Assembly (NCBI GenBank): GCA_028712445.1
Contig: JAQTPY010000001.1
Span: forward strand, 50,034-114,033
Direction: 5' to 3'
DNA from: Minisyncoccota bacterium
GTDB taxonomy: Bacteria > Patescibacteriota > Minisyncoccia > Minisyncoccales > RBG-13-42-11
Length of the DNA stretch: 64,000 nucleotides
Below, one piece after another: positions 34,778 to 50,585 of the stretch. Positions within the stretch are counted from its first letter, which is position 1. Each line of letters starts with the position of its first letter. The position numbers were made by a program, and so were the translations under genes. The notes below the pieces were generated by a model. That model had not been told where the DNA came from. It ran no database searches and saw nothing but the letters and a program-made list of their open reading frames with translations.

Positions 34778-35923
34778 TTATCCTGCCTTGATGGGCATTA
34801 CCAGATACAGATAACTGTCTTCGTTTTTTGATTTCAGGACTCCTGCTTTTTCTGAACCATTAAGGCCAAAAACCACCTCTTTTTTCTTGTCTCCGGAAAT
34901 CATGTTCAGGAGGCCGTCTAACAAAAAGCGGTAGTTAAAAGACGTCTCGCAGGGCTTTCCCTCTATTTTTGCAGCCACTGAGCTGTTATACTCCCCAACA
35001 TCCGGATTCTGGCTGAAAATATTGAGCAATCCCTTTTCCGGATCTGCTTTTAATTTAACTTCGTTTATTTTCCCTGAAAAAAGAGAGGCCATTTTAATCT
35101 GGTTGGCAAATTCATCCGCAGCCAAAGCGATCTTCGTTTCGTAGGTCTTAGGAATAATCTCTGTATAATTAGGATAATCCCCTTCAATTAAACGGGAAGT
35201 AAGCTGAATCTGAGGATGATTTGTTTCAGAAAGAAGACTTTCGAATAAAACCTGATTCGGAGAAAAATAGATCGACATGCTGCCTTCTTTGTCTCCAAAA
35301 ATATTAATCACTTCCTTGGCCGCTCTTTGAGGGAGAATAAAAGAATAGTCTTTGGTTATTTTGGAAGCTGAATCAGGCAAGAATAATTTCTTTTCTCCTA
35401 ATCTAAAACTGTCAGTGGCTGTCATCGTCACTTGGTTTCCTTGAAAGAGAAAATAGACCCCGGAAATTTCCACCTTAGTTGAAGATAAGCTGGCGATATC
35501 CACAACCTTGCTTAAACTTTGGCAGAACAGCTGATTCCCAACCACTATCTTTTCTTCTGTGGAAATTTTGGGAATAATTGGAAACTCTTCAGGATCGACC
35601 CCTTTTATCAGGGTTTTATAATTATCCGATTCAATTTCCAGATTTAAATCTTTAACACCAAATTGTATCGGTTTATTGGGGAGAAGATTAATAAAACTTG
35701 AAAGAATTTTTGCAGGAACTGCAATTTTTCCTTCTTTTTCAGTTTTAACCAAAGACCACCAGTTAATTCCGATTTCCAAATCCGTGGTAGTCAGATTAAT
35801 AAAGTTTTTTTCTGTTTTAATTAAGACCGTGTCTAAAATTGGCAGAGTCAAAGATCTGCCCGCGACCCGTTCAACAACACTAATACCTTCTTTTAATTTA
35901 TCTTTTAATATTATTGTTTTCAT
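34778..35923 (-). CDS. dnaN: DNA polymerase III beta sliding clamp.
   Basis: MKTIILKDKLKEGISVVERVAG...LPILDTVLI and 381 aa. Confidence 0.85.
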   Translation of the reverse strand: MKTIILKDKLKEGISVVERVAGRSLTLPILDTVLIKTEKNFINLTTTDLEIGINWWSLVKTEKEGKIAVPAKILSSFINLLPNKPIQFGVKDLNLEIESDNYKTLIKGVDPEEFPIIPKISTEEKIVVGNQLFCQSLSKVVDIASLSSTKVEISGVYFLFQGNQVTMTATDSFRLGEKKLFLPDSASKITKDYSFILPQRAAKEVINIFGDKEGSMSIYFSPNQVLFESLLSETNHPQIQLTSRLIEGDYPNYTEIIPKTYETKIALAADEFANQIKMASLFSGKINEVKLKADPEKGLLNIFSQNPDVGEYNSSVAAKIEGKPCETSFNYRFLLDGLLNMISGDKKKEVVFGLNGSEKAGVLKSKNEDSYLYLVMPIKAG

Positions 35924-36025
35924 TGTGTAAAACTTTTTCCTTAAAGCTAATTTGTTCTTAAATTATCTAGTTGTTTCACGGTTTAAAATTTGGGGAAAAA
36001 AATTAAGTCGCCATTTATCCCCAGC

Positions 36026-37375
36026 TTATGCAGTGTATATGCGTTGTTTAATTAAGTTAATTTCGTTTGAAAAGTTCTCATCTTTTTCTAATTCTTTCAC
36101 AATTTTTCCACAGGCGTGGATTGCGGTTGTGTGGTCTTTTCCCCCAAATTTTCTGCCAATAAAAGGATAGGAACTTTTTAATTCTTCCCTCAAAAGGAAC
36201 ATGGCAATCTGGCGGGGCCTAACAATCTCTTTTTTTCTGGAAGAAGAGAGCAATTCCTTTTCTCTAAGATCATAGAATTCAGCCACGGTTTGAATGATTT
36301 TTGCCGGATTGGCCAATTTGCTGGGAGAAATTAGGATGTTTTTTAAAAGAGATTTTATTGTCTCTAATTCAGGTATCTGGTTGTTTATTCTCTGATAGGC
36401 AATTATTCTGTTTAAAGCCCCCTCCAACTCTCTAATGTTTCTTTGGATATTAGCTGCAATATAATCAAGGATTTCATCAGAAAGATTGACTCCTTTTTCT
36501 AAGCTTTTTGTTTTTAAAATTGCCACTCTCATTTCATAATCAGGATAACTGATGTCTCCGATCATTCCTCCTTCAAATCGAGACCTGAGCCTTTCTGCTA
36601 AGGCGGGAATGGCTTTGGGAGGACGGTCAGAAGAGAGGATTATCTGTTTGTTCGTTTCATATAAAGCGTTAAAGGTATGAAAAAATTCTTCTTGGGTTTT
36701 TTCCTTTCCGGCCAGGAATTGGATGTCGTCTAAAATCAAAATATCAAAAGCCCTGTATTTTGCTTTGAAATTTTCAACGTCTTGGTTCCTAATTGAGGAA
36801 ACCAGGCCTGCGGTAAATTTTTCAGTAGGGATATATTTGATCTTTTTTTGCGGGAAGTTTTTGATAACTGCATTTCCTATGGACTGTAAAAGATGGGTCT
36901 TCCCGAGTCCTACCCCGCCGTATATAAAAAGAGGATTATAAACAAGCCCGGGCTTCTGAGATACTGCCCAGGCGGCTGCGTGGGCTAATTCGTTAGAAGG
37001 ACCCACTACAAAATTTTCAAAGTTATATTTAGGATTAAGGTTGGTTTCTCTGTCTACCTGAAGTTCTTCAAATTCCATCTGACCGGGGACAGTAAGGGGA
37101 GGCAATTCTTTTTTTACCGCTCTTACTTCGGCCTTGCCCACAGAATATTTAACTTCTTTGATTTCCTTGTCAAGGTTGAACAAAATTTTTAGAATCGTTT
37201 TTCCGTATTTATTTTCCAGCCATTCCTTAGCAAAAGAATTAGGGACAGAGACCATTATTTGGCCATCCTTAGAGGAGACAATATTTGTCTCCTTAAACCA
37301 AGTGGCAAAATTGGCTTGGGATATATTTAATTGAATTTGGGCAAGAACCGCTTGCCAAAGCTCTTCTTTTGTCAT
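36026..37375 (-). CDS. dnaA: Chromosomal replication initiator DnaA.
   Basis: GGVGLGKTHLLQ Walker A, the ILLIDDIQFL box, and a C-terminal DNA-binding domain. Confidence 0.95.
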   Translation of the reverse strand: MTKEELWQAVLAQIQLNISQANFATWFKETNIVSSKDGQIMVSVPNSFAKEWLENKYGKTILKILFNLDKEIKEVKYSVGKAEVRAVKKELPPLTVPGQMEFEELQVDRETNLNPKYNFENFVVGPSNELAHAAAWAVSQKPGLVYNPLFIYGGVGLGKTHLLQSIGNAVIKNFPQKKIKYIPTEKFTAGLVSSIRNQDVENFKAKYRAFDILILDDIQFLAGKEKTQEEFFHTFNALYETNKQIILSSDRPPKAIPALAERLRSRFEGGMIGDISYPDYEMRVAILKTKSLEKGVNLSDEILDYIAANIQRNIRELEGALNRIIAYQRINNQIPELETIKSLLKNILISPSKLANPAKIIQTVAEFYDLREKELLSSSRKKEIVRPRQIAMFLLREELKSSYPFIGRKFGGKDHTTAIHACGKIVKELEKDENFSNEINLIKQRIYTA

Positions 37376-37587
37376 ATCACGAATGTCATATCACGAAAAG
37401 CTAGTTAACATTTCCCATGATAACACATGTCAAATTAAAATAGAATTAACGTAAAATACGAATAAAATAAAGTATTCTGTTGAAAAAATGAGGAAAAAGT
37501 GTGCAAAACTAGGAGACTTTTTATGGCTTAAATCGCAACGATCGGCAAATTGACTTATCTCTGCCTTGTTGCTAAAATAAACCCACT
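37376..37587. promoter_or_regulatory. Candidate oriC / dnaA control region.
   Basis: Sits between divergent dnaA and rpmH. It contains an AT-rich stretch and degenerate DnaA-box-like 9-mers (tgataacac, ttatctctg). Confidence 0.35.
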
Positions 37588-37725
37588 ATGTCTATTACTT
37601 ACCACGGAAAAAGAAAAAAAAGAAGTAGGACGCATGGCTTCATGAAAAGAATGGAAACAAAGTTCGGAAAGAGGGTTCTCTCTAAACGAAGAGCTAAGGG
37701 AAGAAAGAAATTAGTAACCGTTTAA
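37588..37725 (+). CDS. rpmH: 50S ribosomal protein L34 (not in the ORF track because it is under 60 aa).
   Basis: Translates to MSITYHGKRKKRSRTHGFMKRMETKFGKRVLSKRRAKGRKKLVTV with a TAA stop. Confidence 0.85.
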   Translation: MSITYHGKRKKRSRTHGFMKRMETKFGKRVLSKRRAKGRKKLVTV

Positions 37726-37741
37726 AGCGTTTCAAGGTCAG

Positions 37742-38083
37742 ATGTTGTCTAAAGAAAACCGGCTTCAGAAAAAGAAGGATTTTGAGAATGTTTTTAAGCA
37801 AGGAAAAAGCTATAAAGAAAAGTTTCTAATTTTAAAAACAGCAAAAAATGATCTCAACGTCCCCCGTTTCGGTTTTGTTGTATCTCAGAAGGTTTCCAAA
37901 AAAGCCACCATCAGAAATAAAATTAGGAGAAGGTTGAAGGTAATTCTGTCTGGCGAGCTGAAAAACGAAGCAATCGGCGGGAAAGATTTTCTTTTTATTG
38001 CCTTGCCAGGATTGGCAAACAAAGATTTTGAGGAGCTGAGAGAGATTTTTTCCAAAGTTTACAAAAAATCAAAAAGCGCATGA
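37742..38083 (+). CDS. rnpA: RNase P protein component.
   Basis: Position after rpmH, 113 basic aa, and a TGA stop overlapping the yidD ATG. Confidence 0.8.
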
Positions 38084-38289
38084 TCAAAAAAATCTTTTTA
38101 AATACAATCACGTTTTATCAAAAATTTATTTCCCCTGTTTTGGGAAAAAATTGCAGATTTTATCCAAGCTGCTCAAATTACGCTCTTGTGGCTATGGAAA
38201 AATACGGTTTGCTCAAAGGGATGATTTTAGCGACAAAAAGACTATTAAAGTGCCATCCTCTGCATAGCGGAGGCATAGATTTACCCTAA
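38080..38289 (+). CDS. yidD: Membrane protein insertion efficiency factor YidD.
   Basis: [22 protein letters not shown]...HGGIDLP. Confidence 0.85.
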
Positions 38290-39023
38290 TGGAATTTTTT
38301 AAAGAAATTTTTATTACAGTTTTGTACCAGCCATTGTTTAACGCTCTGGTTTTTCTTTATCAGTATTTGCCTGGGAAAGACTTTGGAGTGGCCATTATTG
38401 TTTTGACGCTTTTAATAAGGATTTTAGTTTATCCTTTAATGGTAAAATCCTTGAAGTCCCAAAAGCAGGGAATGGAGCTTCAGCCAAAAATAAAAGAGAT
38501 TCAGAATAAATATAAGGACGATAAGGAAAAACAGACCAAAGCATTAATGGAGCTTTATCAGAAAGAAAAGATCAATCCTTTCGGCGGATGTCTGCCCCTT
38601 TTGGTCCAGCTCCCCATTCTTATTGCCCTTTATCGGGTTTTTTGGAGAGGACTAGATCCGGGTACTCTTAATTATCTTTACAGTTTTGTTCCTAATCCGG
38701 GAGTAATCGACCCTAATTTTATTGGATTAATAAATCTGTCTCAGCCCAACATGGTCATTACCGTGATTGCCGGGTTTCTTCAGTTTCTCCAGGGAAAAAT
38801 GTTTGCCCCTAAAATGGGAGGATCTTCCGGAGACGGGAAGAAAGACCTTATGTCAGACATAATGAAAAAGCAAACAATCTATTTTTTTCCTTTAATTACA
38901 GTTGTGTTTCTATTTAGACTCCCCTCGGCAATTGGTATTTACTGGATAGTGACAACCCTGTTTTCTATTGGACAACAATATTTCATTTTTAAGCAGAAAA
39001 AAAATGAGCCAGAAAAATCTTAA
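38289..39023 (+). CDS. yidC: Membrane protein insertase YidC (short form).
   Basis: Conserved YidC/Oxa1 core (CLPLLVQLPILIALY), 244 aa. Confidence 0.8.
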   Translation: MEFFKEIFITVLYQPLFNALVFLYQYLPGKDFGVAIIVLTLLIRILVYPLMVKSLKSQKQGMELQPKIKEIQNKYKDDKEKQTKALMELYQKEKINPFGGCLPLLVQLPILIALYRVFWRGLDPGTLNYLYSFVPNPGVIDPNFIGLINLSQPNMVITVIAGFLQFLQGKMFAPKMGGSSGDGKKDLMSDIMKKQTIYFFPLITVVFLFRLPSAIGIYWIVTTLFSIGQQYFIFKQKKNEPEKS

Positions 39024-39462
39024 TGTAATAAAAAAAGCAATTCAAGAATTTTTTGAAAAAGCTAATTTTGAGGTGGACATAGAAAGCGTGAAAGAAAGTG
39101 AAGATACTGTTTTTGTGAGTTTAAAAATGGAAGAACCCCAGGTTTTAATCGGGGAAGGAGGGCAAACCCTAAACGAACTTCAGCATCTTTTAAAGCTCAT
39201 AATAAAAAGAAAAGCGGAAAGCTTGTTCTATTTAGATTTGGATATCAATAACTACAAGAAAAAAAAGATAGAATATCTCAAGGAATTGGCCGTATCTACG
39301 GCAAATGAAGTTTCTTTAATGAGAAAAGAAAAAGAACTTCCTCCAATGACGGCTTATGAGAGAAGGGTCGTTCATATGGAATTGGCTAGCAGAGAAGATG
39401 TGATGACGGAAAGTATTGGAGAGGAACCGGAAAGAAGATTGATAATTAAACCTCGTCCTTAG
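39004..39462 (+). CDS. jag: Jag/KhpB-like RNA-binding protein (KH plus R3H). Start set at the internal ATG at 39004; the track ORF begins at 38968.
   Basis: C-terminal R3H-like motif (YERRVVHMELA) and the conserved position after yidC. Confidence 0.65.
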   Translation: MSQKNLNVIKKAIQEFFEKANFEVDIESVKESEDTVFVSLKMEEPQVLIGEGGQTLNELQHLLKLIIKRKAESLFYLDLDINNYKKKKIEYLKELAVSTANEVSLMRKEKELPPMTAYERRVVHMELASREDVMTESIGEEPERRLIIKPRP

Positions 39463-39464
39463 TA

Positions 39465-39857
39465 TTAAAAATTTAAATTGGGTGAGTCCAACATCAAAAC
39501 GTCGGGATTGACGATACGAAGCAAAATTACAGATCCCAACAAAAGAAGAATTCCGATCAAAGCAGATTTGATTATATCGGTGGCATCTTTTTGAGTAGTT
39601 GGGTTGCCGGAAGAAGACATGTATTTGATTCCGCCATAGACTATCATTGTAAAAGCCAAAAGACCTGAGATGGCAACGGCAAAATTAAAAATATATTGTA
39701 TCAATTGGGGAAGGGTGGCTACAAGATTCCCGTTCTCAGAAATTTTCACGCCTCCTGGCAGTTCTGGCCAATCGATTTCCGCCCTTAGGGCGAGAAGAGC
39801 AAAAAGCTCTTTTTTTGTTTTCAGAAACTTCATCATGATCTTTAGACAATATAACAT
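39465..39857 (-). CDS. VirB2/TrbC-like T4SS pilin candidate (signal peptide plus a two-TM hairpin).
   Basis: Signal-like N-terminus (KFLKTKKELFALLALRA), then FNFAVAISGLLAFTMIVYGGIKYMSSSGNP...IIKSALIGILLLLGSVILL. The topology is typical of Gram-positive/CPR T4SS pilins. Last gene of the T4SS-like block. Confidence 0.5.
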   Translation of the reverse strand: MLYCLKIMMKFLKTKKELFALLALRAEIDWPELPGGVKISENGNLVATLPQLIQYIFNFAVAISGLLAFTMIVYGGIKYMSSSGNPTTQKDATDIIKSALIGILLLLGSVILLRIVNPDVLMLDSPNLNF

Positions 39858-39885: not shown

Positions 39886-40263
39886 TCACATTAATAATCT
39901 TATAAGCCACGTGGGCAGAATGTCGCTGACTCCGGGGATTCTTTCTATAATGAAAGGCATAATCATCCCCTGGAAAGGTATTTTTGCTATTAAAGCCAGT
40001 AGAACTATAAAAATCACTTCCAGGAGCAGCTCCCAGGTCAAGGTATCTATGCCCAACCCCGGAATTAAATCTATTAACTCCATTATGCCAGCAAAAAAGA
40101 GCAAGATTATTCCTCCGGGCGAAAAAAGAACGTCTTGAGGGATTTTTTTAAACCATTTGCCGCGGGACCCTGTTTTTCTTCCCGGAGTATTTGTGTTTTG
40201 GACGTCGGCCTCAGGTTGGACAGGATTTTGAACAGGAGTCAGGTTGTCGTTTTTTTCTGCCAT
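39886..40263 (-). CDS. Small membrane protein of the T4SS-like cluster.
   Basis: 125 aa with a low-complexity N-terminus and 2-3 hydrophobic helices. Sits between virB4 and the pilin gene. Confidence 0.4.
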   Translation of the reverse strand: MAEKNDNLTPVQNPVQPEADVQNTNTPGRKTGSRGKWFKKIPQDVLFSPGGIILLFFAGIMELIDLIPGLGIDTLTWELLLEVIFIVLLALIAKIPFQGMIMPFIIERIPGVSDILPTWLIRLLM

Positions 40264-40266
40264 GAA

Positions 40267-42048
40267 TTATTGCGAACCTTTGGCTCTTTTGATTTTTATT
40301 AATTCTTCAGGGGAAGTAGTGATAAACTGATCTTCGACATAGGAAGCGACAACTTTAATTGCCACATGTTTCTGGCCTGCAAAAAATATTCCTTCTCCCA
40401 CTTCTGCTTCCAATAGGGTGTTTTTTTCTTCTTGGGTTAAATTGAAAGTTTCCTGGAGAATATCTATTGTCGCCGGGCTTTGTTTCATTAAAATTTGCAT
40501 AGAAGAGTTGGTGATTATGGGTTTTCCATAATCAGATTTCATAAAATCTCCCACATCCTGGGTAATAGTCGTCACTCCAAGCCAATATTTTCTTGCCCTT
40601 TTGCAAATGCCATAAAGGAAAGAAGCTCCGTCATCAGATTGAACCATCCACCATGCTTCATCGACAACCAATATCCTCTTTTTTAATTCTGATCTGACTT
40701 TATTCCAGATATATCTCATAATAATGAACATTGCCATCGGGCGCAGCTCATCTTCCATGTCTCTTATTCCGAAAACAACGAAAGGAACGTCTGTGGAAAT
40801 ATTGGTGGGCTGGTTAAAGAAGCTGGCGAAACTGCCTTCGGTGAATTTTTTAACTCTTCGGACCAGAGACTCAGACCCCTCCATTCCGTTTAAAACTTCC
40901 TCAAGGTCAGACATTAAAGGGATTTTTTCTTTCCAAGTTAAAGGATCGCTTTCGGGAGTAATGTCTTTTAAGGCATAGGTTTGACTCAAGGCCTGGTCAA
41001 TAATGGCATCTTCTTCCGGGGTTAATCCCCCAAGCATTATTCTTAATAACCCTACCAAGTTGATAATATTTGAACGCAAAACTTCTTCGGGCCTCTCGTC
41101 TTCTCTTGGAGCGGGCAAGTCAAAAGGATTAATGTGGTTGGGAGAAGAGAGAGACATATTAAAGAAGGAACCGCCAACTCCTTCAGCCAGATGCTTGTAT
41201 TCATTTTCCGGATCAAGAACAATTACGTCTGACCCCATCATTAAAGAGCGGAGGATTTCCAGTTTTATCGCGTAGGATTTTCCGGAACCTGATTTTGCAA
41301 AAACAATGGAGTTTGCGTTTTCCAGACTGAAACGGTCAAACAATATTAAAGAATTATTGTGCAGATTTATTCCGTACAATATTCCGTCATTTGAGCTCAG
41401 GTCAAAGGAAACAAAAGGAAAAGAGCTCGAAAGAGAACCTGTGTCCATGGTGGTGTGAACGTTAACCTGGTCTAGTCCGTAAGGGGCGGTGGAATTAAAC
41501 CCTTCTTCCTGCTGGTAGAGAGCAGGCTTTATATATATTAATCTTGATTCCAATATTGACCTTAAGGTGGTTTCAACGTTCTTTATTTCCTCTAAGGTTT
41601 TTCCGTAAACCGTAAGATAGAGCCCGAATTCAAACATTCTTTCCTGGGCAGTCATTAATTTATCTCTCAACATCTCAAGGTCTTGGTAGGCCACCTCTAG
41701 GGCAGGATCCCTCACCTCCCCTTTTTCTTGTTTATCTATAAGCTCGGCTTCAACTTCAGTCACTCTTTTTCTTAATTTTTTCAATACTGTTCCTGTGTCA
41801 ATCGGGGTGATATGCAAGCTGATATCCATAGGAGTGTCGAGGTTGATTACCGGGGCAAACCAGGCGGTATTAAGATATCTGGGGTATGAAAAAATAAAGA
41901 AAGATTTTGCGAATCTTTTGCCAAACTCCAAATGATCGGGTTTTACAACAATAGAAGACGGGGCAATAATGTCTTTGGAATCAAGGGCATTTGCCTCAAA
42001 TAGTTTTTCAGGCTCAACGCTCTTCTTTTTAAAAAATGGAAAAGGCAT
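40267..42048 (-). CDS. virB4: VirB4/TraC/PrgJ-family T4SS ATPase, C-terminal 593-aa portion (central and ATPase domains).
   Basis: FIFSYPRYLNTAWFAPV segment, Walker A VFAKSGSGKSY, Walker B ILVVDEAWWM, and C-terminal motifs. Confidence 0.8.
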   Translation of the reverse strand: MPFPFFKKKSVEPEKLFEANALDSKDIIAPSSIVVKPDHLEFGKRFAKSFFIFSYPRYLNTAWFAPVINLDTPMDISLHITPIDTGTVLKKLRKRVTEVEAELIDKQEKGEVRDPALEVAYQDLEMLRDKLMTAQERMFEFGLYLTVYGKTLEEIKNVETTLRSILESRLIYIKPALYQQEEGFNSTAPYGLDQVNVHTTMDTGSLSSSFPFVSFDLSSNDGILYGINLHNNSLILFDRFSLENANSIVFAKSGSGKSYAIKLEILRSLMMGSDVIVLDPENEYKHLAEGVGGSFFNMSLSSPNHINPFDLPAPREDERPEEVLRSNIINLVGLLRIMLGGLTPEEDAIIDQALSQTYALKDITPESDPLTWKEKIPLMSDLEEVLNGMEGSESLVRRVKKFTEGSFASFFNQPTNISTDVPFVVFGIRDMEDELRPMAMFIIMRYIWNKVRSELKKRILVVDEAWWMVQSDDGASFLYGICKRARKYWLGVTTITQDVGDFMKSDYGKPIITNSSMQILMKQSPATIDILQETFNLTQEEKNTLLEAEVGEGIFFAGQKHVAIKVVASYVEDQFITTSPEELIKIKRAKGSQ

Positions 42049-42060
42049 AAATTCTTTAAT

Positions 42061-42678
42061 CTATTTTGTTATTTCCGGTGGAATTTCAGGATAATATCCC
42101 ACTTCTGATTCTTCGGGATGAAAAAGACTCCAAAACAACTCAATTAATTCAGGAGTGTTTAGGTGGCTGCACTGCAGGCCGCATCTTCTTAATCCTAAAG
42201 CGACAAATTCCATTCTCTGCCAAAGCTGGGATTTAGCTCTTTGAAAGTCGTCTTCCGTGGGCGTTGCAGTATTTGATTTTGTTCCAGGAATATTAAGAAC
42301 GTAAAATGGAACCAAAACATAGAAGGTTTTAGATAAAATCTGGCCTCCGGCAATAAGTTCTTTGATGAATTTCTGATATTCTTCAGTTTGTATTTTTAAG
42401 AGTTCGTTTTGCTGTTTTTGGGCCAAATCGCCAACTTTGTCTATGTATCCTGTAATGTTTAAAATTCTGGACTGGATAACGATTTCCAAGGGGAAATCCA
42501 GGGAATTTAAAAAGTTCTGGAATTGGAAAATGGTGGCTTCCTGTTCTTCAGCTGATTTTAAAGCAAAGTTTTGCGAGGACACGTTTAAAACTCCACGTAA
42601 AGATTTGTTCTTTAAATAGACAACCCCTTCTCTTATTTGTTCTATTTGTAAAAATTGTTGAGTGGATGATGAGGGCAT
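42061..42678 (-). CDS. virB4: VirB4/PrgJ N-terminal domain as a separate 205-aa ORF. It is in frame with 40267..42048 and separated from it only by a TAG plus 4 codons.
   Basis: GVVYLKNKSLRGVLNVSSQNFALKSAEEQEATIFQFQNFLNSLDFPLEIVIQSR matches the N-terminus of Gram-positive VirB4 proteins. Confidence 0.6.
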   Translation of the reverse strand: MPSSSTQQFLQIEQIREGVVYLKNKSLRGVLNVSSQNFALKSAEEQEATIFQFQNFLNSLDFPLEIVIQSRILNITGYIDKVGDLAQKQQNELLKIQTEEYQKFIKELIAGGQILSKTFYVLVPFYVLNIPGTKSNTATPTEDDFQRAKSQLWQRMEFVALGLRRCGLQCSHLNTPELIELFWSLFHPEESEVGYYPEIPPEITK

Positions 42679-42680
42679 GG

Positions 42681-42998
42681 TCAGGTTTTGGTTTTTAATT
42701 CGTATCTTTTATCTTGCTGTTTTTTCTTTTTCCAGATGTACATTTTAGGAGCGATAAAAAATTTTAAGACACTGCCAAGGGCCACTATAAAAGGACGGCC
42801 GTTGACTTTTATAAAAGACATGGCCAACGCTCCGCCGATAACAAAAACAGCAGCAATATAAAAGACAGGTCTGGGCAAAATGAAGTAAAGCAAAAAACAA
42901 ATTCCTCCTGCTCCGGCAATAAAAAGAAATTGGTTGAAGGTAAAAGGCCCAAATATTTTAGACTCGTATTCAATAAATTGTGGGACTGTAAAGCGCAT
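42681..42998 (-). CDS. PrgI-family (VirB3-like) small membrane protein.
   Basis: RFTVPQFIEYESKIFGPFTFNQFLFIAGAG plus two TM helices. Immediately upstream of virB4, as in Gram-positive T4SS loci. Confidence 0.55.
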   Translation of the reverse strand: MRFTVPQFIEYESKIFGPFTFNQFLFIAGAGGICFLLYFILPRPVFYIAAVFVIGGALAMSFIKVNGRPFIVALGSVLKFFIAPKMYIWKKKKQQDKRYELKTKT

Positions 42999-43015: not shown

Positions 43016-43522
43016 TTAGTCAATTTGTTCTCTATAACTATCGCTGGACGCAGATCTCTCTTTGACTATTGGGTTGGCTGTTTTCATCTGCAAACCGATT
43101 TCTTTCGGAACAAAAACTTTCTTTTTAGGAAGATTTTTTTCCTCAGAAACTTCGGGTTTGATTTCTTCTATGATCTTCTCTTCCGCCTTTTTATTTTTTT
43201 GAGAATAAAGAATTTCCAAAGATGCTTTTACCGGGAAGAATACATATCTGTTTATTTCTTCGGCAATTTGTTTTGCCTTTTCTTTTTCAACGTCCAGTTC
43301 TTTTTCAATCCTTTCTTGGAAGTTTTCCGGCGGCAAAATACCCAACAAAACCTCTCCAACCAACAGGGAGATGTCTGAAGGAAGATCAACCTCGTTCTTT
43401 TCGCAGACATTCCCAATGCTTTCAGCGGTGGAAGGCGAAAGCAAAGCTTCTTTGAGCTCTTGGGGGAGTTTTTCGTACAACTCCCAGTTTTTTTTAATAT
43501 TTTCTTGAGATAAGGTTGTCAT
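43016..43522 (-). CDS. Hypothetical cytoplasmic protein of the T4SS-like cluster.
   Basis: 168-aa acidic ORF between the virB6-like and prgI-like genes. Confidence 0.4.
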   Translation of the reverse strand: MTTLSQENIKKNWELYEKLPQELKEALLSPSTAESIGNVCEKNEVDLPSDISLLVGEVLLGILPPENFQERIEKELDVEKEKAKQIAEEINRYVFFPVKASLEILYSQKNKKAEEKIIEEIKPEVSEEKNLPKKKVFVPKEIGLQMKTANPIVKERSASSDSYREQID

Positions 43523-43589: not shown

Positions 43590-43976
43590 GTGGAATGGTG
43601 GGTATGGCTAATAATCGCAGGAGCTCTCGTTCTGGTAATCCTGGCTTTCTCCGGCAACACAACGGTTAAAAAGGTGATCAGGGCCAAGAAGGAGACACCT
43701 CCCCCGGCTCCGGAAGACCCTACGGAGGAAGAAAGAATCAGGTCCCGTATCCGGGAAGAACAAAGGATAGCGGCTTACTATCAGGGGCTTCTTTCTCCCG
43801 AACCGACAGACGTAAAGGGATTGGGGGAAAGGTTAAGGACTCTTCGTCTTCAGGGGAAACTTCTTTCTCAGCAGTATGAAAACAAAGAGCTTGAGAAGAA
43901 GATCCTGGCTGCCACTGAAGCCGCGGAAAAAAGCAATGAGGGATGGGAGCAAAAAATCAACGAGGGGAAACCATAG
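43590..43976 (+). CDS. Single-pass membrane-anchored Pro-rich protein (GTG start).
   Basis: A strong AAAGGAGG SD sits 9 nt before GTG. N-terminal TM WWVWLIIAGALVLVILAF. Convergent with the virB6-like gene. Confidence 0.45.
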   Translation: MEWWVWLIIAGALVLVILAFSGNTTVKKVIRAKKETPPPAPEDPTEEERIRSRIREEQRIAAYYQGLLSPEPTDVKGLGERLRTLRLQGKLLSQQYENKELEKKILAATEAAEKSNEGWEQKINEGKP

Positions 43977-44052: not shown

Positions 44053-46743
44053 TTATATTAATTTTTTATATTTTGCCAATTCTGCTTTTAGTTTTGCGTC
44101 TCCGTCGATTGTTTTTATCAGTTGAGTTAATTCGCCAGCTCTTTTTATTTGATTATTTGAGATTTCCGCAGGTATTGCCTGGCCCTTGTCTCGCATGGCC
44201 ACAATCACTTTTCCTAATTTTTTTGCTATTTCAGAACCTTCTACAAATTTTTTGATCTGTGGATTGTCTTCAAGTATTTTGTGAGCGTCAAGCTCTCGTT
44301 TCACGTCGCCCTTCCCTTTTTGCTTGCTCAATGTTTCTTTATATCGCTGCAACTGCCCTCTTGACAAAGGATCACTGTCGATAAAATCTCTGGCTTTAAA
44401 TATTTCTTCGTTTCTTTCTATTATCTGTTTTTGGATATCTTCTTTGGCAGGAACCTGTCCGTCAGCTATCGCTTTAAGTATGGAATTTTCATCACTGTCA
44501 ACGCTTTTTTGGTTTTCGATATATTCATTTAGCGGAGAATTGCTTTCCAAGATCTGTTTGGCGGCGACATTTCTTCCGAAATCTTTTTCATCGACGCCGG
44601 CAATTCCTACTCCAAGAGTTAAAGCAGGAGTGTCTATCAAGAACTTTGCTGCTTTGGCATTTCTCATTTTGTGGATTGTTTTTGTTTCAGGAAGTTTTGT
44701 GTTTGGGTTAATTTCAGTCCAAGATGTTTCTTCTATTTCCGTGAACCAATCAAGACCTTTTTTCTTAGCTTCGTTTATATAATCATCAGCGAATGGGGAA
44801 CCGAATTCTTCAACCATTTTACTGATCTTTTTGCCATCATAATTCTTGAGTATAGATTCTCTTATCGTCATTTCTTCTTTCCCAGTATCAGGATTAGTTG
44901 TTTTTGTTAACCAAGATCCGTCTTTAAAATCTTTAACCTCATCTCCACTTGTCTCAGCCCATATTTTATCAGTAAGCGTTCCGTATTTTGCCTGTTCTTC
45001 GGCGCTTAGTTCAAATCCCATCTTAGCCAAGTCATCATTGTTGAGGGTGTGCATAAAGCCCCTGGCCATCCTTTCGGCATCATCTTTTTTGCCAAGCCTG
45101 TTTGATGAAGCGGCTGAGGAGATGATTTCTTCTTTGCTTAATCTGCCCCTCTCAAACATATCCCAGACTCGTTTTTTGCTTTCTTTTCCTGCTTCAATTC
45201 CGCCGGCAATCAGACCGGTTAATTTTTCTTTATTGCCCAATCTTTTGGCCGCCATGATTTTTCTTTCCAGATTTTCAGGATCCTTAACGTCTTTTGCGTC
45301 TTTTTTGCCCACCTCAACCCCTGCCATGGTTTTTTCGCCAACGGTTGTGCCAGCCACCCTGTAACCAAAGTCAATCATGTTTCCTGCTCCTAGCCGCATT
45401 TTGTTTAACAAACCTACTTTTTGACCGCTGGCCACTTTCGCCCTTAAATCTTCTCTGGTATTTTGAGTGAATTCTCTCAAACCCCTGTCAGTTCTGCTCC
45501 TTAGCGCGCTCAAGCCCTTCTTTTTGGCCCAATTAAGCCCTTTATTTCCCCACTGGAGAACCGCTTCTGTTCCCCCGCCAGAGAATTTCAAAGTCACGAC
45601 GAAGCCGATTATCATAAAAGCAATAAAGGCGATCAAGACAAACGCGCCATTCATTATATAAGTAACGGGAGATATTATGATTTGCATAATTCCTTCTGCC
45701 CCTGTTTCGGTTATTTTAGGATAAGGTATGTCGGCCTTGGTTAAACGTCCCGCCAAGTAAAGGAAGAATCCTCCTATTGCTCCGATAAAAGACCATTGGA
45801 TGAAATAATTCAACCACATTTTGAAGACTTTTTGGGTGGTGGGTAGAATTTGGCAAAACCAGGCGATAGGGGCCAAGATGACCAAAATCCACAAAGCAAC
45901 TATTCTTATTGCAAAAATGGCAACATAAAGCAAAATAACGATTCCAGCCATAATCCCGAAAAGACTCATCATTACGGTGTCTATTATAAGAGTTATTATT
46001 TGTTGGGGATTTAGATATTTAACAAAAATATCCAAAATACTCGTCCATGTCTTAGTCGGTTCTATTTGAGTAATTTCCTCTCCATCTATGATAATGGTCG
46101 ATGTTTCGGGTTGCATTTGGTCAGCTAGGCCAGTAAAGACTGAAACAAAATCACCCAAAGGAGTTTTATTAAAGAACGTCATAAAATTATCTCCCAAATT
46201 TCCGATTAAAAAGTGTCGGGTTACTATATTGGCAATATCAATCACTATCCCGCAGAATACGGGAACAAAGTTTATTAAAAGAATAACGATGAGAAATTTG
46301 GGTAGAAGTTTTTTTAATCCATAGTTTTCTCTTCTTAAAATAGTGGCTATGGCAATTACAACCAAAACCAAAATAAAAATTAAATTTGCCAGCCCTGTAG
46401 TAACTCTTAGTCCTTCATCAACAATACCGCCACGGGTTGCGGAAAGAGAAACGAACGCCTCGCTGGTGACAAAGGTCAAAAGAGAAGTGCAAAGGGAGTA
46501 GAACGCAAATGACGATAAAGTTATAATTGTCGTTCCGACGATGATGATGGTTATCGGCATACCAAAAAACATCAAAAGAGGCAAATATTTTATATAGTCG
46601 CCAACGTCCATAATCCCTTTCCAGATATCGCTAAGACCGGCAGCGTTGGCAAAGTTAATTGTTGCAAAACTAAACAACAAAATTAACCCGAAACAAGAAA
46701 CTAAGGTTTTTTTGTTTGCTGAAAGTTTTTTGATCAGATCCAT
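44053..46743 (-). CDS. VirB6/TrbL-like polytopic membrane protein with a ~500-aa hydrophilic C-terminal extension.
   Basis: Signal peptide, then about 9 TM helices over ~400 aa, then a long Lys/Glu-rich soluble tail. First gene of the block. Confidence 0.55.
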   Translation of the reverse strand: MDLIKKLSANKKTLVSCFGLILLFSFATINFANAAGLSDIWKGIMDVGDYIKYLPLLMFFGMPITIIIVGTTIITLSSFAFYSLCTSLLTFVTSEAFVSLSATRGGIVDEGLRVTTGLANLIFILVLVVIAIATILRRENYGLKKLLPKFLIVILLINFVPVFCGIVIDIANIVTRHFLIGNLGDNFMTFFNKTPLGDFVSVFTGLADQMQPETSTIIIDGEEITQIEPTKTWTSILDIFVKYLNPQQIITLIIDTVMMSLFGIMAGIVILLYVAIFAIRIVALWILVILAPIAWFCQILPTTQKVFKMWLNYFIQWSFIGAIGGFFLYLAGRLTKADIPYPKITETGAEGIMQIIISPVTYIMNGAFVLIAFIAFMIIGFVVTLKFSGGGTEAVLQWGNKGLNWAKKKGLSALRSRTDRGLREFTQNTREDLRAKVASGQKVGLLNKMRLGAGNMIDFGYRVAGTTVGEKTMAGVEVGKKDAKDVKDPENLERKIMAAKRLGNKEKLTGLIAGGIEAGKESKKRVWDMFERGRLSKEEIISSAASSNRLGKKDDAERMARGFMHTLNNDDLAKMGFELSAEEQAKYGTLTDKIWAETSGDEVKDFKDGSWLTKTTNPDTGKEEMTIRESILKNYDGKKISKMVEEFGSPFADDYINEAKKKGLDWFTEIEETSWTEINPNTKLPETKTIHKMRNAKAAKFLIDTPALTLGVGIAGVDEKDFGRNVAAKQILESNSPLNEYIENQKSVDSDENSILKAIADGQVPAKEDIQKQIIERNEEIFKARDFIDSDPLSRGQLQRYKETLSKQKGKGDVKRELDAHKILEDNPQIKKFVEGSEIAKKLGKVIVAMRDKGQAIPAEISNNQIKRAGELTQLIKTIDGDAKLKAELAKYKKLI

Positions 46744-47541: not shown

Positions 47542-49746
47542 TTAAATAGGAAACTGCCACCATTTGCCAAAGATCTCAATTTGGAATCCCAGTAATGACA
47601 AGAGGAAAGTGACAATAAACCAGGCAGAAAAGACGATCAAAAATCCTTTGCCAAATGATTTCCAAATAGATTTGATTTTGCTCAAGGTGCCAGAATCCCC
47701 CATGGCAGTGTAATAAATTATGCCAGAGCCAGTCACCAGGAAAATCAATAAAATAGGAATCAGGGTCCAGAGGACAAAATCAAGAATGTTTCTGAAAATG
47801 TAGAAAATATCTTTAAATTCGCAAGGCCTGTGATCGTCATAAGGGGTGTCTGGGGAGTCGCAGTTCCTTCCGCAAGGAACCAGCCCTTTTTTGCATTCTT
47901 TATCTCCAGGAACCAAATTGAAAGAGAAATTGGCCCATTCTCCGGCGTCTTGGCAGTCTTTATCCAAGCAGGCCTTGACAGACCAGGAGTAGTTTTGAAA
48001 ATTTAAGTTCCCGGTTTCAAGAAAAGTTGAGTTCGTCCCAACAATGCCTTCGGGGCCTCCCGAAATCTTGTATTGATAATAGTTGGCTCCTTCCACAGGA
48101 TTCCAGGAAAGGTTTTTTTGATAAGAAATTAATTCTCCGCCGTTTGAGGGTTCAGGATTTGCCACTTGGGGAAGAGTGAAAGTAGTGAAATTTTTTACAG
48201 AGGAATTTCCGCAGATTTTAGCTTCCCTGTCAGCACAGGTTTTAAGAGCTAACCAATAGTTCGTTTTCGTTTTAAGGAGAGGATAATCGGCCAAAGGATT
48301 GGCTCCCGCGAAAGGAAGGAGGCCTGAAGACAAAATTTGAGAAAAGCTTCCATTAGATGAAAGCTCATAATAATAAGAGGCGGCTGCCGGCATTTGGTCA
48401 AAAGTCAAAGAAACGGGAATTAAGGGGAGCCCCTGGTTTCCGAAAGGGCTGATTTTAATGTTTGTTGGAGGAGCCCCTGTGGTTTTGAAAGTCAAGTTAT
48501 TAAAAATTTGTTCGCAATTGTTCCCTTTTTCGTCCCAACAAGAACTTAACTTCAAGGTGTAGCCTTGATTAAGTTCAAGTTTGTTCCAGATATCGCTGAA
48601 AGGAACGGAAGTGATTTCTCCCGAAGTGGTGGCGCTTATTATCGTCAGGCCGTTTTTTAAAATTTCATATCTGTAGGAGAGCACCCCTTTCAGCCCCATT
48701 GATTCCCAGGAGATGGAGTTTGAAAGATTGACCGTGTCTGAGTCTTTGGGGAAATTGATCACGGGAGCAAGAAGGTTCAGAGTGCCTGTGTTTATTTTCC
48801 AATATTGACTGAAATCTCCGCACTCTGAACCTTCTTGATTTTCCTTGCATTTTTCTCCGCAATCAGTGCCGTCCGCATTCAAACAGGCGGCGATTTCCCA
48901 AGAATAATCACTAAGCTTGGTAAAAATATCTGTCCCATATTCTATTTCCGAACTTTCAATGTTTTCTTTTTCATCGATGGGAACGGGAAAAAATATCTTT
49001 CCGTCTTTGTACAGCTTAAGAAAATATGATTCAGCGTCATTTACTGAGCACCAGTCAAGTTTCACTGGCACGGAAGTGTTTTGGGCGCTCTCTTCCCCTT
49101 GCCAGTCGGGGTCTTTCGGCGAAACTAGTTCTGGCGCCAGAGAGGTTTTTAAATTCCAGTTGCTGGAATTTCCACAGTTGGTTCCGTTGGCGTTGCAGCA
49201 AGCAGAGACATCCCAGTTATAAGAAGAATTGGAGTCAAGAAGACAAGAACCATTGTCTTCTTGGACATCATATTCAGATTTATTAATTATTTTTGAGACT
49301 ATCTTGTTGTAAATATTAATTACGTAAGATTTAGGTCCGGTAGACTCTCCCCAGCCTGCCACGTCGTTCCAATCCAGTTTTACGGGCAGCTTAATATTAT
49401 TTTTATCTACGCTTTTTGAAGACTGGTCTGAATAATAGGGATTATCGTAATACCTGTCGCCAGAAGGGGTTTCCAAGCATTCTCCCTGACAGGAACAGGA
49501 AGGCGGAGAGGCGCTGCATCTTTCCCAGGATTGGCATTCCTGGACTAATATGTCTTCGCATTCGCTTCCTCCACAGCAGGGCTCCCCGGGAGTCACGTAG
49601 CGGAGCTCTCCTTCGCAGCCTCCGGCGCAGTAATAATATCCTCCGCAGGGGCAAGGGATGCATTTTTCCCCCTCAGCTTTTGCTTGCTGAAAAAATAAAA
49701 AAATAAAAAACAGTAAAATAAAAAATATGAAAAACTTTTTCATCAT
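47542..49746 (-). CDS. Large Cys-rich surface protein: signal peptide, a CxC-rich module, about 5 tandem beta-sandwich-like repeats each closed by a Cys pair, and a C-terminal pilin-like 2-TM hairpin.
   Basis: Repeats end in ..SACCNANGTNCG.., ..AACLNADGTDCG.., ..SSCWDEKGNNCE.., ..KTCADREAKICG.., ..KACLDKDCQDAG... The C-terminus reads LLIFLVTGSGIIYYTAMGDSGTLSKIKSIWKSFGKGFLIVFSAWFIVTFLL. The start overlaps the ksgA stop (TAATG). Confidence 0.55.
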   Translation of the reverse strand: MMKKFFIFFILLFFIFLFFQQAKAEGEKCIPCPCGGYYYCAGGCEGELRYVTPGEPCCGGSECEDILVQECQSWERCSASPPSCSCQGECLETPSGDRYYDNPYYSDQSSKSVDKNNIKLPVKLDWNDVAGWGESTGPKSYVINIYNKIVSKIINKSEYDVQEDNGSCLLDSNSSYNWDVSACCNANGTNCGNSSNWNLKTSLAPELVSPKDPDWQGEESAQNTSVPVKLDWCSVNDAESYFLKLYKDGKIFFPVPIDEKENIESSEIEYGTDIFTKLSDYSWEIAACLNADGTDCGEKCKENQEGSECGDFSQYWKINTGTLNLLAPVINFPKDSDTVNLSNSISWESMGLKGVLSYRYEILKNGLTIISATTSGEITSVPFSDIWNKLELNQGYTLKLSSCWDEKGNNCEQIFNNLTFKTTGAPPTNIKISPFGNQGLPLIPVSLTFDQMPAAASYYYELSSNGSFSQILSSGLLPFAGANPLADYPLLKTKTNYWLALKTCADREAKICGNSSVKNFTTFTLPQVANPEPSNGGELISYQKNLSWNPVEGANYYQYKISGGPEGIVGTNSTFLETGNLNFQNYSWSVKACLDKDCQDAGEWANFSFNLVPGDKECKKGLVPCGRNCDSPDTPYDDHRPCEFKDIFYIFRNILDFVLWTLIPILLIFLVTGSGIIYYTAMGDSGTLSKIKSIWKSFGKGFLIVFSAWFIVTFLLSLLGFQIEIFGKWWQFPI

Positions 49747-50585
49747 TAATCTATTCTATATGTTTTTAATAAATTCAGCCAATCTTCCAGCTCTAATGTT
49801 TCGGCCCTTCTTTTAGGTTCAATCTTATTTTCAATCAGCCAGGTCCCGACTTTCTCTTTACTCAGATTAAGTTTGTTTGAGAGGTTGTTTATCAATTGTT
49901 TTCTCGGTTGGGAAAATCCAGCTTTTACGATTTTAAAAAATGAATCCCTGTTTTTTTCCTTTAATAATGGCTCTCTAAAAGGAAGAATCTTTATCACTGC
50001 AGCGTCAACGTTGGGTTCCGGCCAAAAGAATTTTCCAGGGACGTAAGAAATGATTTTAGGATTTGCGTAAATCTGGACAGAAACCGCTAAAATATTCATT
50101 CCAGGCGGTTTAGAGCATATTTTTTTTCCAACTTCCTTCTGAATTGTAAAAACCATGCTTTCAGGAGGGTTTTCAGATTCCAGAAATCTTCTGATTAGGG
50201 GAGAAGTTAAATAAAAAGGCAGATTGCCGGCTACTTTGTATTTTTCATTTTGGACACCGAGACTTCCCAGATCCACTCTTAAAGCATCTCCCTCTATTAC
50301 CTCTACATTATTAAGCCCTGCCAGAGTTTCTTTCAAAATTTCTATCATTGTCCGGTCTTTTTCTATGGCTACTACCTTTTTAGCTTTTCTTGCCAGTTCT
50401 TGGGTTAAGACTCCCAGCCCGGGTCCGATTTCTAATACCAATTCATCAGATTGGAGATCTAAAGCTTCGGTAAGTTTTTCTATAGTCGATCTATTCAATA
50501 AAAAATTCTGCCCCAATCCTTTAGAGGGGCGAGCCAGATGGTTTTTCAGGATGTTTTTAATGTCAGATTTGGAAAAAAGATCCAT
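49746..50585 (-). CDS. rsmA: 16S rRNA (adenine1518/1519-N6)-dimethyltransferase.
   Basis: GQNFL, LEIGPGLG and the NLPY motif context. Confidence 0.85.
   Translation of the reverse strand: MDLFSKSDIKNILKNHLARPSKGLGQNFLLNRSTIEKLTEALDLQSDELVLEIGPGLGVLTQELARKAKKVVAIEKDRTMIEILKETLAGLNNVEVIEGDALRVDLGSLGVQNEKYKVAGNLPFYLTSPLIRRFLESENPPESMVFTIQKEVGKKICSKPPGMNILAVSVQIYANPKIISYVPGKFFWPEPNVDAAVIKILPFREPLLKEKNRDSFFKIVKAGFSQPRKQLINNLSNKLNLSKEKVGTWLIENKIEPKRRAETLELEDWLNLLKTYRID

What the first reader, a model, noticed from the sequence alone, without database searches (positions are those of the whole stretch)
40267..42678. VirB4 ATPase interrupted by a single in-frame TAG between its N-terminal domain and the rest
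ORFs 42061..42678 (205 aa, VirB4 N-domain) and 40267..42048 (593 aa, central plus Walker A/B domains) are in the same frame. The minus strand reads ...PEITK TAG IKEF ATG PFP.... Together they total ~800 aa, a normal VirB4 length. TAG is a genuine stop here, since uvrB and rpsT end in TAG. Three explanations fit: a recent nonsense mutation (pseudogene), a naturally split two-polypeptide VirB4, or a sequencing or assembly error. The downstream piece has its own ATG, which favours a split gene that is still functional.
Basis: seen in the sequence. Interest (0 to 1): 0.6.

Follow-up and report, generated by a model that had tools for sequence, protein, structure and literature searches.

The report
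Naturally two-gene VirB4 (TrsD-like plus ATPase)
The "interrupted" VirB4 is not broken: it is the normal, ancient two-gene form of this secretion ATPase (a TrsD-like N-terminal protein followed by the ATPase), found in hundreds of related ultra-small bacteria and already described in the literature, so it is ordinary.

Summary
On the minus strand a 205-aa ORF (42678..42061) ends in TAG. Twelve bases later, in the same frame, a 593-aa ORF (42048..40267) begins. The two match a full-length VirB4 profile colinearly and without overlap.

It is not a nonsense mutation, an assembly error or a readthrough site:
- The junction is identical in another assembly of a different sequencing run; a second run's assembly carries the same 205-aa ORF.
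- All 79 informative species-representative genomes have the same stop-separated pair, cut at the same protein position.
- Those junctions use TAA, TGA or TAG, all three relative frames (21/21/37), and gaps from a 4-nt ATGA overlap to 498 nt. Two have an unrelated gene in between.
- Both halves are under strong purifying selection.
- None of the 150 best cluster representatives is fused.

The same architecture is trsD–trsE of Staphylococcus plasmid pGO1, and it also occurs on a Geobacillus plasmid. A 2025 paper (PMC12102498) reports TrsD homologues beside virB4, near dnaA, in 1,664 cases in Patescibacteria.

The locus is a typical Patescibacteria chromosomal type IV secretion cluster next to dnaA. 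The in-frame arrangement is a coincidence. It is already known and of low interest.

The parts
42061..42678 (-). TrsD-like protein (205 aa). It corresponds to the first ~175 positions of full-length VirB4 and is a stand-alone gene.
   Evidence: CD1110 profile 2-171, Mbov_0397 VirB4 profile 103-280; 4737 homologues, and the best 120 are all 201-222 aa; all 25 aligned homologues end at the same C-terminus; hhalign against pGO1 TrsD gives probability 84.7%, E 6.7e-6; the best PDB fold matches are R388 TrwK/VirB4, but weak (E 0.027, TM 0.40).
42061..42063 (-). TAG stop codon of the TrsD-like gene
   Evidence: the junction is identical in Logan assembly SRR22315508; at this position relatives have TAA (52), TGA (23) or TAG (4).
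42049..42060 (-). 12-nt intergenic spacer (ATTAAAGAATTT) between the two genes
   Evidence: Other junctions in the operon have gaps of 2, 3, 17 and 28 nt. In relatives the gap ranges from -4 to 498 nt.
40267..42048 (-). VirB4/TrsE-type ATPase (593 aa). It holds the second half of the VirB4 N-terminal region plus the Walker A/B ATPase domain.
   Evidence: CD1110 family 381 bits against a 325-bit cut-off, profile 180-734. P-loop_TraG, AAA_10, DUF87; aligns with pGO1 TrsE from residue 1, E 4e-39; 4AG5 VirB4 C-terminal domain, E 4e-46, aa 222-577.
42681..42998 (-). PrgI / VirB3-like small membrane protein (105 aa), 2 nt upstream of the TrsD-like gene
   Evidence: PF12666 PrgI, E 1e-8. (2-nt gap). 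The same order PrgI, N piece, ATPase occurs on a Geobacillus plasmid.
39465..39857 (-). VirB2-like T4SS pilin (130 aa)
   Evidence: PF18895 T4SS_pilin, E 1e-10. (Mbov_0395 pilin-like, E 2e-7).
39886..40263 (-). 125-aa predicted protein with hydrophobic stretches, 3 nt downstream of the ATPase. Its function is unknown. It is assigned to the operon by position only.
   Evidence: No family hit.
43016..43522 (-). 168-aa protein of unknown function, upstream of PrgI in the same direction. It is assigned to the operon by position only.
   Evidence: no Pfam hit; called as a gene in independent assemblies.
44053..46743 (-). 896-aa protein with a hydrophobic N-terminal half, upstream in the same direction. 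It is a candidate VirB6-like channel component, but this is not demonstrated.
   Evidence: translation. No significant family hit. A 907-aa protein lies next to the ATPase gene on the Geobacillus plasmid.
36026..37375 (-). dnaA. With dnaN (34778-35923) and rnpA-yidD-yidC-jag (37742-39462, plus strand) it marks the replication-origin neighbourhood. This is context, not part of the machine.
   Evidence: Bac_DnaA E 8.6e-71; DNA_pol3_beta; the paper reports virB4 near dnaA, dnaN, rnpA and ksgA in Paceibacteria.

Best explanation
The two ORFs are two separate, conserved genes of one operon. The first encodes a TrsD-like protein that corresponds to the first ~175 positions of canonical VirB4. The second encodes a TrsE-type VirB4 ATPase that begins exactly where the first leaves off. 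[quoted passage not shown] The same architecture occurs in the pGO1 class of monoderm conjugation systems.

Shown:
- The cut is ancient.
- It sits at the same protein position in distant lineages.
- Both halves are under purifying selection.
- The cut does not depend on reading frame, on which stop codon is used, or on spacer length.

Inferred:
- The genes are co-transcribed with prgI/virB3 and translated separately. Translation is often coupled, as suggested by the ATGA overlaps in relatives; here it would restart after a 12-nt gap.
- The two polypeptides then associate non-covalently to reconstitute a VirB4-like membrane-docked ATPase. The TrsD-like piece would supply the membrane- and VirB3-proximal part, and the larger piece the oligomerising ATPase that powers the secretion channel and pilin handling.

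The confidence of 0.93 refers to the shown part (a conserved, functional two-gene architecture of the TrsD plus VirB4 kind). I would put the inferred assembly step at about 0.7.
For: Complementary, non-overlapping match to full-length VirB4 profiles.

Breadth of the stand-alone form:
- The N piece has 4737 homologues, and the best 120 are all 201-222 aa.
- All 25 aligned homologues stop at the same residue.
- The 150 best 50%-identity cluster representatives, down to E 1.4e-30 and 37% identity, are 125-443 aa. None is fused.
- For ten of the longer ones, all 356-443 aa, the extra length does not match VirB4.

Junctions in other species:
- At least 490 species-representative genomes encode a relative.
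- In 79 of 79 with downstream sequence, the N piece ends in a stop and the C piece follows.
- Relative frames are 21/21/37, stops are TAA 52, TGA 23 and TAG 4, and gaps run from -4 (ATGA, 14 cases) to 498 nt.
- In L071 and L075 an unrelated gene (PDDEXK_3; 23S_rRNA_IVP) lies between the halves.

Selection: dN is 0.16-0.23 for the N piece and 0.13-0.18 for the C piece, with saturated dS.

Independent assemblies: the junction is identical in an assembly of SRR22315508, and an assembly of SRR22315506 carries the same 205-aa ORF, so the stop is supported by two further sequencing runs.

Same architecture elsewhere:
- pGO1 trsD (227 aa) and trsE (672 aa) are separated by 14 nt.
- The C piece aligns with TrsE from residue 1, E 4e-39.
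- TrsE and a Geobacillus plasmid ATPase both begin at CD1110 profile position 183, against 180 here.
- The N-piece profile matches TrsD at hhalign probability 84.7%, E 6.7e-6.

Literature: PMC12102498 reports TrsD homologues in 2,221 Patescibacteria assemblies, 1,664 of them associated with VirB4. The same paper lists the Southlakia ML1 TrsD homologue as essential and places the cluster near dnaA, dnaN, rnpA and ksgA. This window has the same neighbours.
Against: - No direct evidence here that the two polypeptides bind each other or that both are made. That step is inferred from complementarity and conserved adjacency.
- The N piece does not reach the NCBIfam TrsD model (no hit at E <= 0.01). 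Its similarity to pGO1 TrsD is remote.
- The structural match of the predicted N-piece fold to VirB4 is weak (Foldseek E 0.027, TM 0.40, model pLDDT 71).
- No clear Shine-Dalgarno motif is visible in the 12-nt spacer.
Confidence: 0.93

Rival explanations
1. Recent nonsense mutation: the locus is a VirB4 pseudogene in this genome.
For: A single in-frame stop separates two pieces that together have normal VirB4 length.
Against: - The same cut at the same residue is present in 79 of 79 other species, with different stop codons, frames and spacers.
- No fused form appears among the 150 nearest cluster representatives.
- dN is 0.13-0.23 with saturated dS on both halves.
- The downstream ORF starts with the conserved MPFPFFKKK-type N-terminus, which is shared with pGO1 TrsE.
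Confidence: 0.01
2. Sequencing or assembly error created a false stop codon.
For: None beyond the general possibility in a metagenome-assembled genome.
Against: - The junction sequence ACAAAATAGATTAAAGAATTTATG is identical in a Logan assembly of run SRR22315508. An assembly of a second run, SRR22315506, carries the identical 205-aa ORF and ends at that gene.
- The stop lies exactly where all homologues end.
Confidence: 0.01
3. Programmed readthrough of the in-frame TAG produces a full-length fused VirB4, alone or alongside the two separate products.
For: The two ORFs are in frame with only four sense codons between stop and ATG.
Against: - In-frame junctions are not enriched among relatives: 21 of 79, against about 26 expected by chance (my arithmetic).
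- Fourteen relatives have ATGA overlaps and 37 are in the +2 frame, where readthrough cannot fuse the pieces.
- Most relatives use TAA. Two have a whole gene between the halves.
- Another junction in the same operon is in frame by chance.
- TAG ends 7 of 42 long ORFs in the window.
Confidence: 0.03
4. The 205-aa protein is an independent accessory factor that only descends from a VirB4 N-terminus. It does not act as the missing part of the adjacent ATPase.
For: - PMC12102498 says TrsD has no assigned function and that in Gracilibacteria TrsD homologues are not associated with virB4.
- Some relatives carry 100-240 extra C-terminal residues unrelated to VirB4.
Against: - The adjacent ATPase lacks exactly the region the small protein supplies: profile 2-171 against 180-734, with no overlap and no duplication.
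- Adjacency and order are conserved in 79 of 79 genomes, often with translational-coupling overlaps.
- The same pairing occurs in pGO1 and on a Geobacillus plasmid.
Confidence: 0.1

Closest known systems
Chromosomal T4SS of Patescibacteria (Quinonero-Coronel et al. 2025, PMC12102498; stated there to be essential in Ca. Southlakia epibionticum ML1)
   Same: - The component set is the same: a VirB4 ATPase preceded by a TrsD homologue, PrgI/VirB3 and a VirB2-like pilin.
- The chromosomal neighbourhood is the same: dnaA, dnaN, rnpA, ksgA and an M23/LysM peptidase.
- The nearest homologues are Paceibacteria, Nealsonbacteria and other Patescibacteria MAGs.
   Different: Nothing substantive. The paper describes TrsD as a VirB4 N-terminal homologue of unknown function and does not spell out that VirB4 is cut at one fixed position. 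The junction statistics given here add detail, not a new kind.
TrsD-TrsE of Staphylococcus aureus plasmid pGO1 (MPF_FATA subclass). The NCBIfam model name 'TrsD/TraD family' groups a TraD with TrsD. That this TraD is the pIP501 protein is from my own knowledge and was not tested.
   Same: - A ~200-230-aa protein is followed within 12-14 nt by a ~600-670-aa VirB4-type ATPase that begins at the same profile position.
- It is preceded by a small membrane protein gene.
- The N piece is remotely homologous to TrsD.
   Different: - Sequence similarity is low: 23% identity for the ATPase, and the N piece is below the NCBIfam TrsD cut-off.
- pGO1 is a conjugative plasmid with relaxase and coupling protein in the cluster.
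- This locus is chromosomal, next to the origin, and no relaxase or VirD4 was seen among the neighbours examined.
Canonical single-chain VirB4 (CD1110 family, Mbov_0397 family, F TraC, R388 TrwK)
   Same: All regions of the single chain are represented, in the same order. The Walker A/B ATPase domain is clearly homologous.
   Different: Here the first ~175 profile positions are a separate polypeptide. In those families they are covalently joined.

Membership tests
VirB4-type T4SS ATPase (NCBIfam CD1110 family / TIGR00929 superfamily) | Whole-protein HMM score above the curated cut-off | tested here: met
   the C piece scores 381.3 bits against NF045971 (cut-off 325), E 9e-114. It is below the cut-offs for Mbov_0397, TraC-F and TIGR00929.
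VirB4-type T4SS ATPase (NCBIfam CD1110 family / TIGR00929 superfamily) | P-loop ATPase domain with the Walker A motif and homology to a solved VirB4 C-terminal domain | tested here: met
   P-loop_TraG E 6e-27, AAA_10, DUF87. AKSGSGKS is present; 4AG5 E 4e-46 over aa 222-577.
VirB4-type T4SS ATPase (NCBIfam CD1110 family / TIGR00929 superfamily) | N-terminal region and ATPase in one polypeptide of ~750-830 aa | tested here: not met
   profile positions 2-171 are on a separate 205-aa protein. This holds in 79 of 79 relatives.
TrsD/TraD family (NCBIfam NF041427) | HMM score above the curated cut-off (200 bits) | tested here: not met
   no hit at E <= 0.01 for the window protein. More distant relatives hit at E 1e-6 to 1e-8, 21-34 bits. 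pGO1 TrsD itself scores 227.6 bits.
TrsD/TraD family (NCBIfam NF041427) | Detectable homology to TrsD and to the VirB4 N-terminus | tested here: met
   hhalign of the 61-sequence profile against pGO1 TrsD gives probability 84.7%, E 6.7e-6, with 173 colinear columns; matches VirB4 profile N-termini at E 1.6e-10 and 3.6e-7.
TrsD/TraD family (NCBIfam NF041427) | Encoded immediately upstream of a VirB4-type ATPase that lacks the N-terminal ~175 positions | tested here: met
   the gap is 12 nt here and 14 nt in pGO1. The ATPases start at CD1110 profile position 180 (here) and 183 (TrsE).
Patescibacteria chromosomal T4SS (PMC12102498) | VirB4 with TrsD, PrgI/VirB3 and a VirB2-like pilin encoded nearby | tested here: met
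   PrgI at 42681-42998, T4SS_pilin at 39465-39857, and the TrsD-like and VirB4 genes between them.
Patescibacteria chromosomal T4SS (PMC12102498) | Location near dnaA/dnaN/rnpA/ksgA (origin region), as reported for Paceibacteria | tested here: met
   dnaA at 36026-37375, dnaN at 34778-35923, RrnaAD (ksgA) at 49746-50585; the rnpA-like ORF at 37742. One search gives the published pattern.
Patescibacteria chromosomal T4SS (PMC12102498) | VirB6-like polytopic channel protein near virB4 | tested here: inconclusive
   The 896-aa protein with hydrophobic stretches (44053-46743) has no significant Pfam or NCBIfam hit.
Patescibacteria chromosomal T4SS (PMC12102498) | The VirB4 sequence falls inside the monophyletic Patescibacteria VirB4 clade | not tested
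   No phylogeny was built. All near homologues recovered are from Patescibacteria MAGs.

The most novel reading that the evidence does not exclude
The fixed cut position is shared by Patescibacteria, Bacillales plasmids and pGO1 (profile positions ~171-174 | 180-183). It could reflect one ancient event that defines a deep branch of monoderm T4SSs, or even an ancestral two-gene state from which single-chain VirB4 arose by fusion. In that reading the free N-terminal piece is a separately dosed adaptor between PrgI/VirB3 and the ATPase ring. A lesser variant is that this genome's in-frame TAG allows a trace of fused product by readthrough.
Probability: 0.1. Interest if true: 0.35.

Novelty: already known. 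Interest (0 to 1): 0.1.

Why it matters
The main value is for annotation. Scanners and curators should not flag this junction as a pseudogene, frameshift or assembly error, and the 205-aa ORF should be named TrsD-like (VirB4 N-terminal homologue). The type IV secretion system it belongs to matters biologically, because it is reported to be essential for the epibiotic lifestyle of a cultured Patescibacterium. How a VirB4 works as two chains is an open mechanistic detail. This locus adds no new kind of system.

Tried and rejected
- Pseudogene: rejected on conservation and dN/dS.
- Assembly error: rejected by an identical junction in an independent assembly of another run and the same ORF in a second run's assembly.
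- Readthrough or recoding: rejected because frame and stop identity vary freely among relatives.
- Narrow-profile hhalign against TrsD: the 26-sequence alignment A1 gave only 2.6% probability. Rebuilding with 61 diverse representatives raised it to 84.7%.
- Local Pfam scan of the N piece: nothing significant. The best hit was TraC_F_IV at E 0.016, below the cut-off, although the database's precomputed annotation lists PF26593 TraC-like.
- Profile search of the N piece against PDB sequences: no meaningful hit.
- Fold search: VirB4 (TrwK) chains ranked first, but only weakly.
- Longer N-piece relatives: I checked whether ten of them (356-443 aa) are fused or differently cut VirB4 proteins. They are not. 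Only the N-domain matches.
- Not attempted: a co-fold of the two pieces (no multimer tool), a VirB4 phylogeny, and identification of the 896-aa, 168-aa and 125-aa neighbours.
Full report
**Observation**

On the minus strand, ORF 42678..42061 (205 aa) ends ...YYPEIPPEITK followed by TAG. After ATT AAA GAA TTT, the ATG at 42048 opens ORF 42048..40267 (593 aa) in the same frame.

The two proteins match full-length VirB4 profiles colinearly and without overlap:
- The 205-aa protein covers positions 2-171 of the 752-position CD1110-family model (E 3.6e-7). It also covers positions 103-280 of the Mbov_0397 VirB4 model (E 1.6e-10).
- The 593-aa protein covers CD1110 positions 180-734 (E 9e-114, 381 bits against a 325-bit cut-off).

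The larger piece carries P-loop_TraG, AAA_10 and DUF87 domains.

The solved VirB4 C-terminal ATPase domain 4AG5 aligns to aa 222-577 of the larger piece (E 4e-46). The cut therefore lies inside the N-terminal half of VirB4 rather than at its boundary with the rest.

TAG is an ordinary stop here: 7 of 42 long reading frames in the window end in TAG.

**Is the stop real?**

The exact 205-aa protein is recorded in NCBI as a 'TraC family protein' of a Candidatus Pacebacteria MAG. It also occurs in two Logan assemblies of different sequencing runs, SRR22315508 and SRR22315506.

The SRR22315508 contig reads ...ACAAAATAGATTAAAGAATTTATGCC..., identical to the window. The SRR22315506 contig carries the same 205-aa ORF and ends at that gene. 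An assembly artefact is excluded for practical purposes.

**Is it a recent mutation?**

No. Several lines of evidence agree:
- The 205-aa protein has 4737 homologues at E <= 1e-3. The best 120 (68-100% identity) are all 201-222 aa long.
- In an alignment of 26 of them, every sequence ends at the same residue after the conserved YYPEIPPE motif.
- A search of 1.84 billion 50%-identity cluster representatives found 148 clusters at E <= 1e-30. The 150 best, down to 37% identity, are 125-443 aa long, and none is a fused ~800-aa protein.
- In ten of the longer ones that I checked (356-443 aa), only the N-domain matches VirB4 or TrsD models. The extra residues are unrelated to VirB4.

**Junctions in other species**

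A scan of species-representative genomes found at least 490 that encode a relative, and 80 loci were fetched.

In all 79 with downstream sequence, the small ORF ends in a stop and the ATPase ORF follows:
- The relative frame is 0, +1 or +2 in 21, 21 and 37 cases.
- The stop codon is TAA in 52, TGA in 23 and TAG in 4.
- The gap ranges from a 4-nt ATGA overlap (14 cases) to 498 nt.

In-frame junctions are not enriched. Twenty-one were observed against about 26 expected by chance, so nothing selects for readthrough.

In L071 and L075 a complete unrelated gene sits between the halves: a PDDEXK_3 protein and a 23S_rRNA_IVP protein respectively.

Against ten relatives, dN is 0.16-0.23 for the small protein and 0.13-0.18 for the ATPase. 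Synonymous sites are saturated in every comparison. Both halves are therefore under strong purifying selection.

Within this window's own operon, the gene junctions have gaps of 17, 2, 12, 3 and 28 nt. The junction after the ATPase (TAA TTC ATG) is also in frame by chance.

**What it is**

The neighbours, all on the minus strand, are:
- a PrgI/VirB3-like protein 2 nt upstream (42681-42998)
- a VirB2-like T4SS pilin downstream (39465-39857)
- small and large proteins with hydrophobic stretches and no family match

Immediately beside the cluster are dnaN and dnaA, and rnpA-yidD-yidC-jag on the other strand. On the far side lie ksgA and an M23/LysM peptidase.

This is the pattern published for Patescibacteria. 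Quinonero-Coronel et al. 2025 (PMC12102498) report the following:
- TrsD homologues occur in 2,221 assemblies, and 1,664 of them are associated with VirB4.
- The TrsD homologue of Ca. Southlakia epibionticum ML1 is listed as essential.
- The cluster often lies near dnaA, dnaN, rnpA and ksgA.

**Test against the prototype**

In pGO1, trsD (227 aa) is followed after 14 nt by trsE (672 aa, annotated DUF87).
- The window's ATPase aligns with TrsE from residue 1 of both proteins (MPFPFFKKK against MIMAFLKKKK), E 4e-39.
- TrsE starts at CD1110 profile position 183, against position 180 for the window's ATPase.
- A 61-sequence profile of the small protein matches pGO1 TrsD at hhalign probability 84.7%, E 6.7e-6, over 173 colinear columns. 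A narrower profile had failed.
- The window protein itself does not reach the NCBIfam TrsD model. It is TrsD-like, not a member of that curated subfamily.

A Geobacillus plasmid shows the same order: PrgI, a 318-aa N-domain protein, then a 636-aa ATPase that starts at profile position 183.

An AlphaFold model of the small protein is of moderate quality (pLDDT 71). Its best PDB fold matches are R388 TrwK/VirB4 chains, but weakly (E 0.027, TM 0.40).

**Mechanism**

Shown: this is a conserved two-gene architecture with a fixed cut site, and both halves are under constraint.

Inferred:
- The genes are co-transcribed with prgI.
- They are translated separately, often with translational coupling.
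- The products assemble non-covalently into a VirB4-like ATPase docked on PrgI/VirB3.

The inference rests on two points. The regions are exactly complementary, and adjacency is conserved.

According to the literature read here, TrsD has no experimentally assigned function. This last step needs biochemistry.

**Verdict**

The finding is real, but it is an ordinary and already described feature. The pseudogene, error and readthrough readings are rejected. The in-frame TAG that drew attention is a coincidence.

Noticed in passing
L009:1608-5399, L017:4754-8545, L048:4659-8447, L054:1515-5321, L004:1682-5035: In five related genomes the VirB4 ATPase piece is 1117-1268 aa instead of ~595 aa. In all five sequences the extra ~520-670 residues sit at the Walker A motif (after ...SG[AS]GK), end in HN, and are followed by SY/SF as the ATPase resumes. 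For L009, Pfam confirms an intein with a LAGLIDADG homing endonuclease (Intein_splicing E 2e-19, LAGLIDADG_3 E 2e-20). The window's gene has no such insert.
   Followed up: partly
L071:4670-5175 and L075:4655-5135: In two relatives a complete small gene lies between the TrsD-like gene and the ATPase gene. One is a PDDEXK_3 protein (E 2e-31), the other a 23S_rRNA_IVP four-helix-bundle-type protein (E 1e-16).
   Followed up: partly
Intergenic spacers in L006, L017, L020, L033, L034, L059, L060, L067, L070 (about 70-180 nt after the TrsD-like stop): The longer spacers between the two genes contain conspicuous inverted or direct repeat sequences, for example GGATTTACGAAATCCAACAA...TTGTTGGATTTCGTAAATCC in L020. 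They look like small repeat elements or hairpins inserted at the junction. I did not analyse them.
   Followed up: no
window 34778-39462: This is the replication-origin neighbourhood: dnaN (34778-35923, minus), dnaA (36026-37375, minus), then rnpA, yidD, yidC and a jag-like gene on the plus strand (37742-39462). The T4SS cluster abuts it. The 366-nt dnaA to rnpA intergenic region (37376-37741) is a candidate oriC, but I did not search it for DnaA boxes.
   Followed up: partly
window 47542-49746 (minus): A 734-aa protein has a C-terminal ~65 residues that weakly resemble a T4SS pilin (PF18895, E 1.3e-4, below the cut-off). It may be a large pilin-domain fusion belonging to the same system.
   Followed up: no
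window 43590-43976 (plus): A 128-aa GTG-start ORF on the opposite strand sits in the 530-nt gap between the 896-aa gene and the 168-aa gene. It was called as a gene in an independent assembly (L081) but has no family match.
   Followed up: no
window 42061-42678: The protein database's precomputed annotation gives PF26593 (TraC-like) for this protein and nearly all its homologues. The local Pfam-A scan returned no such family. Its best hit was TraC_F_IV at E 0.016. This is probably a difference between Pfam versions.
   Followed up: partly
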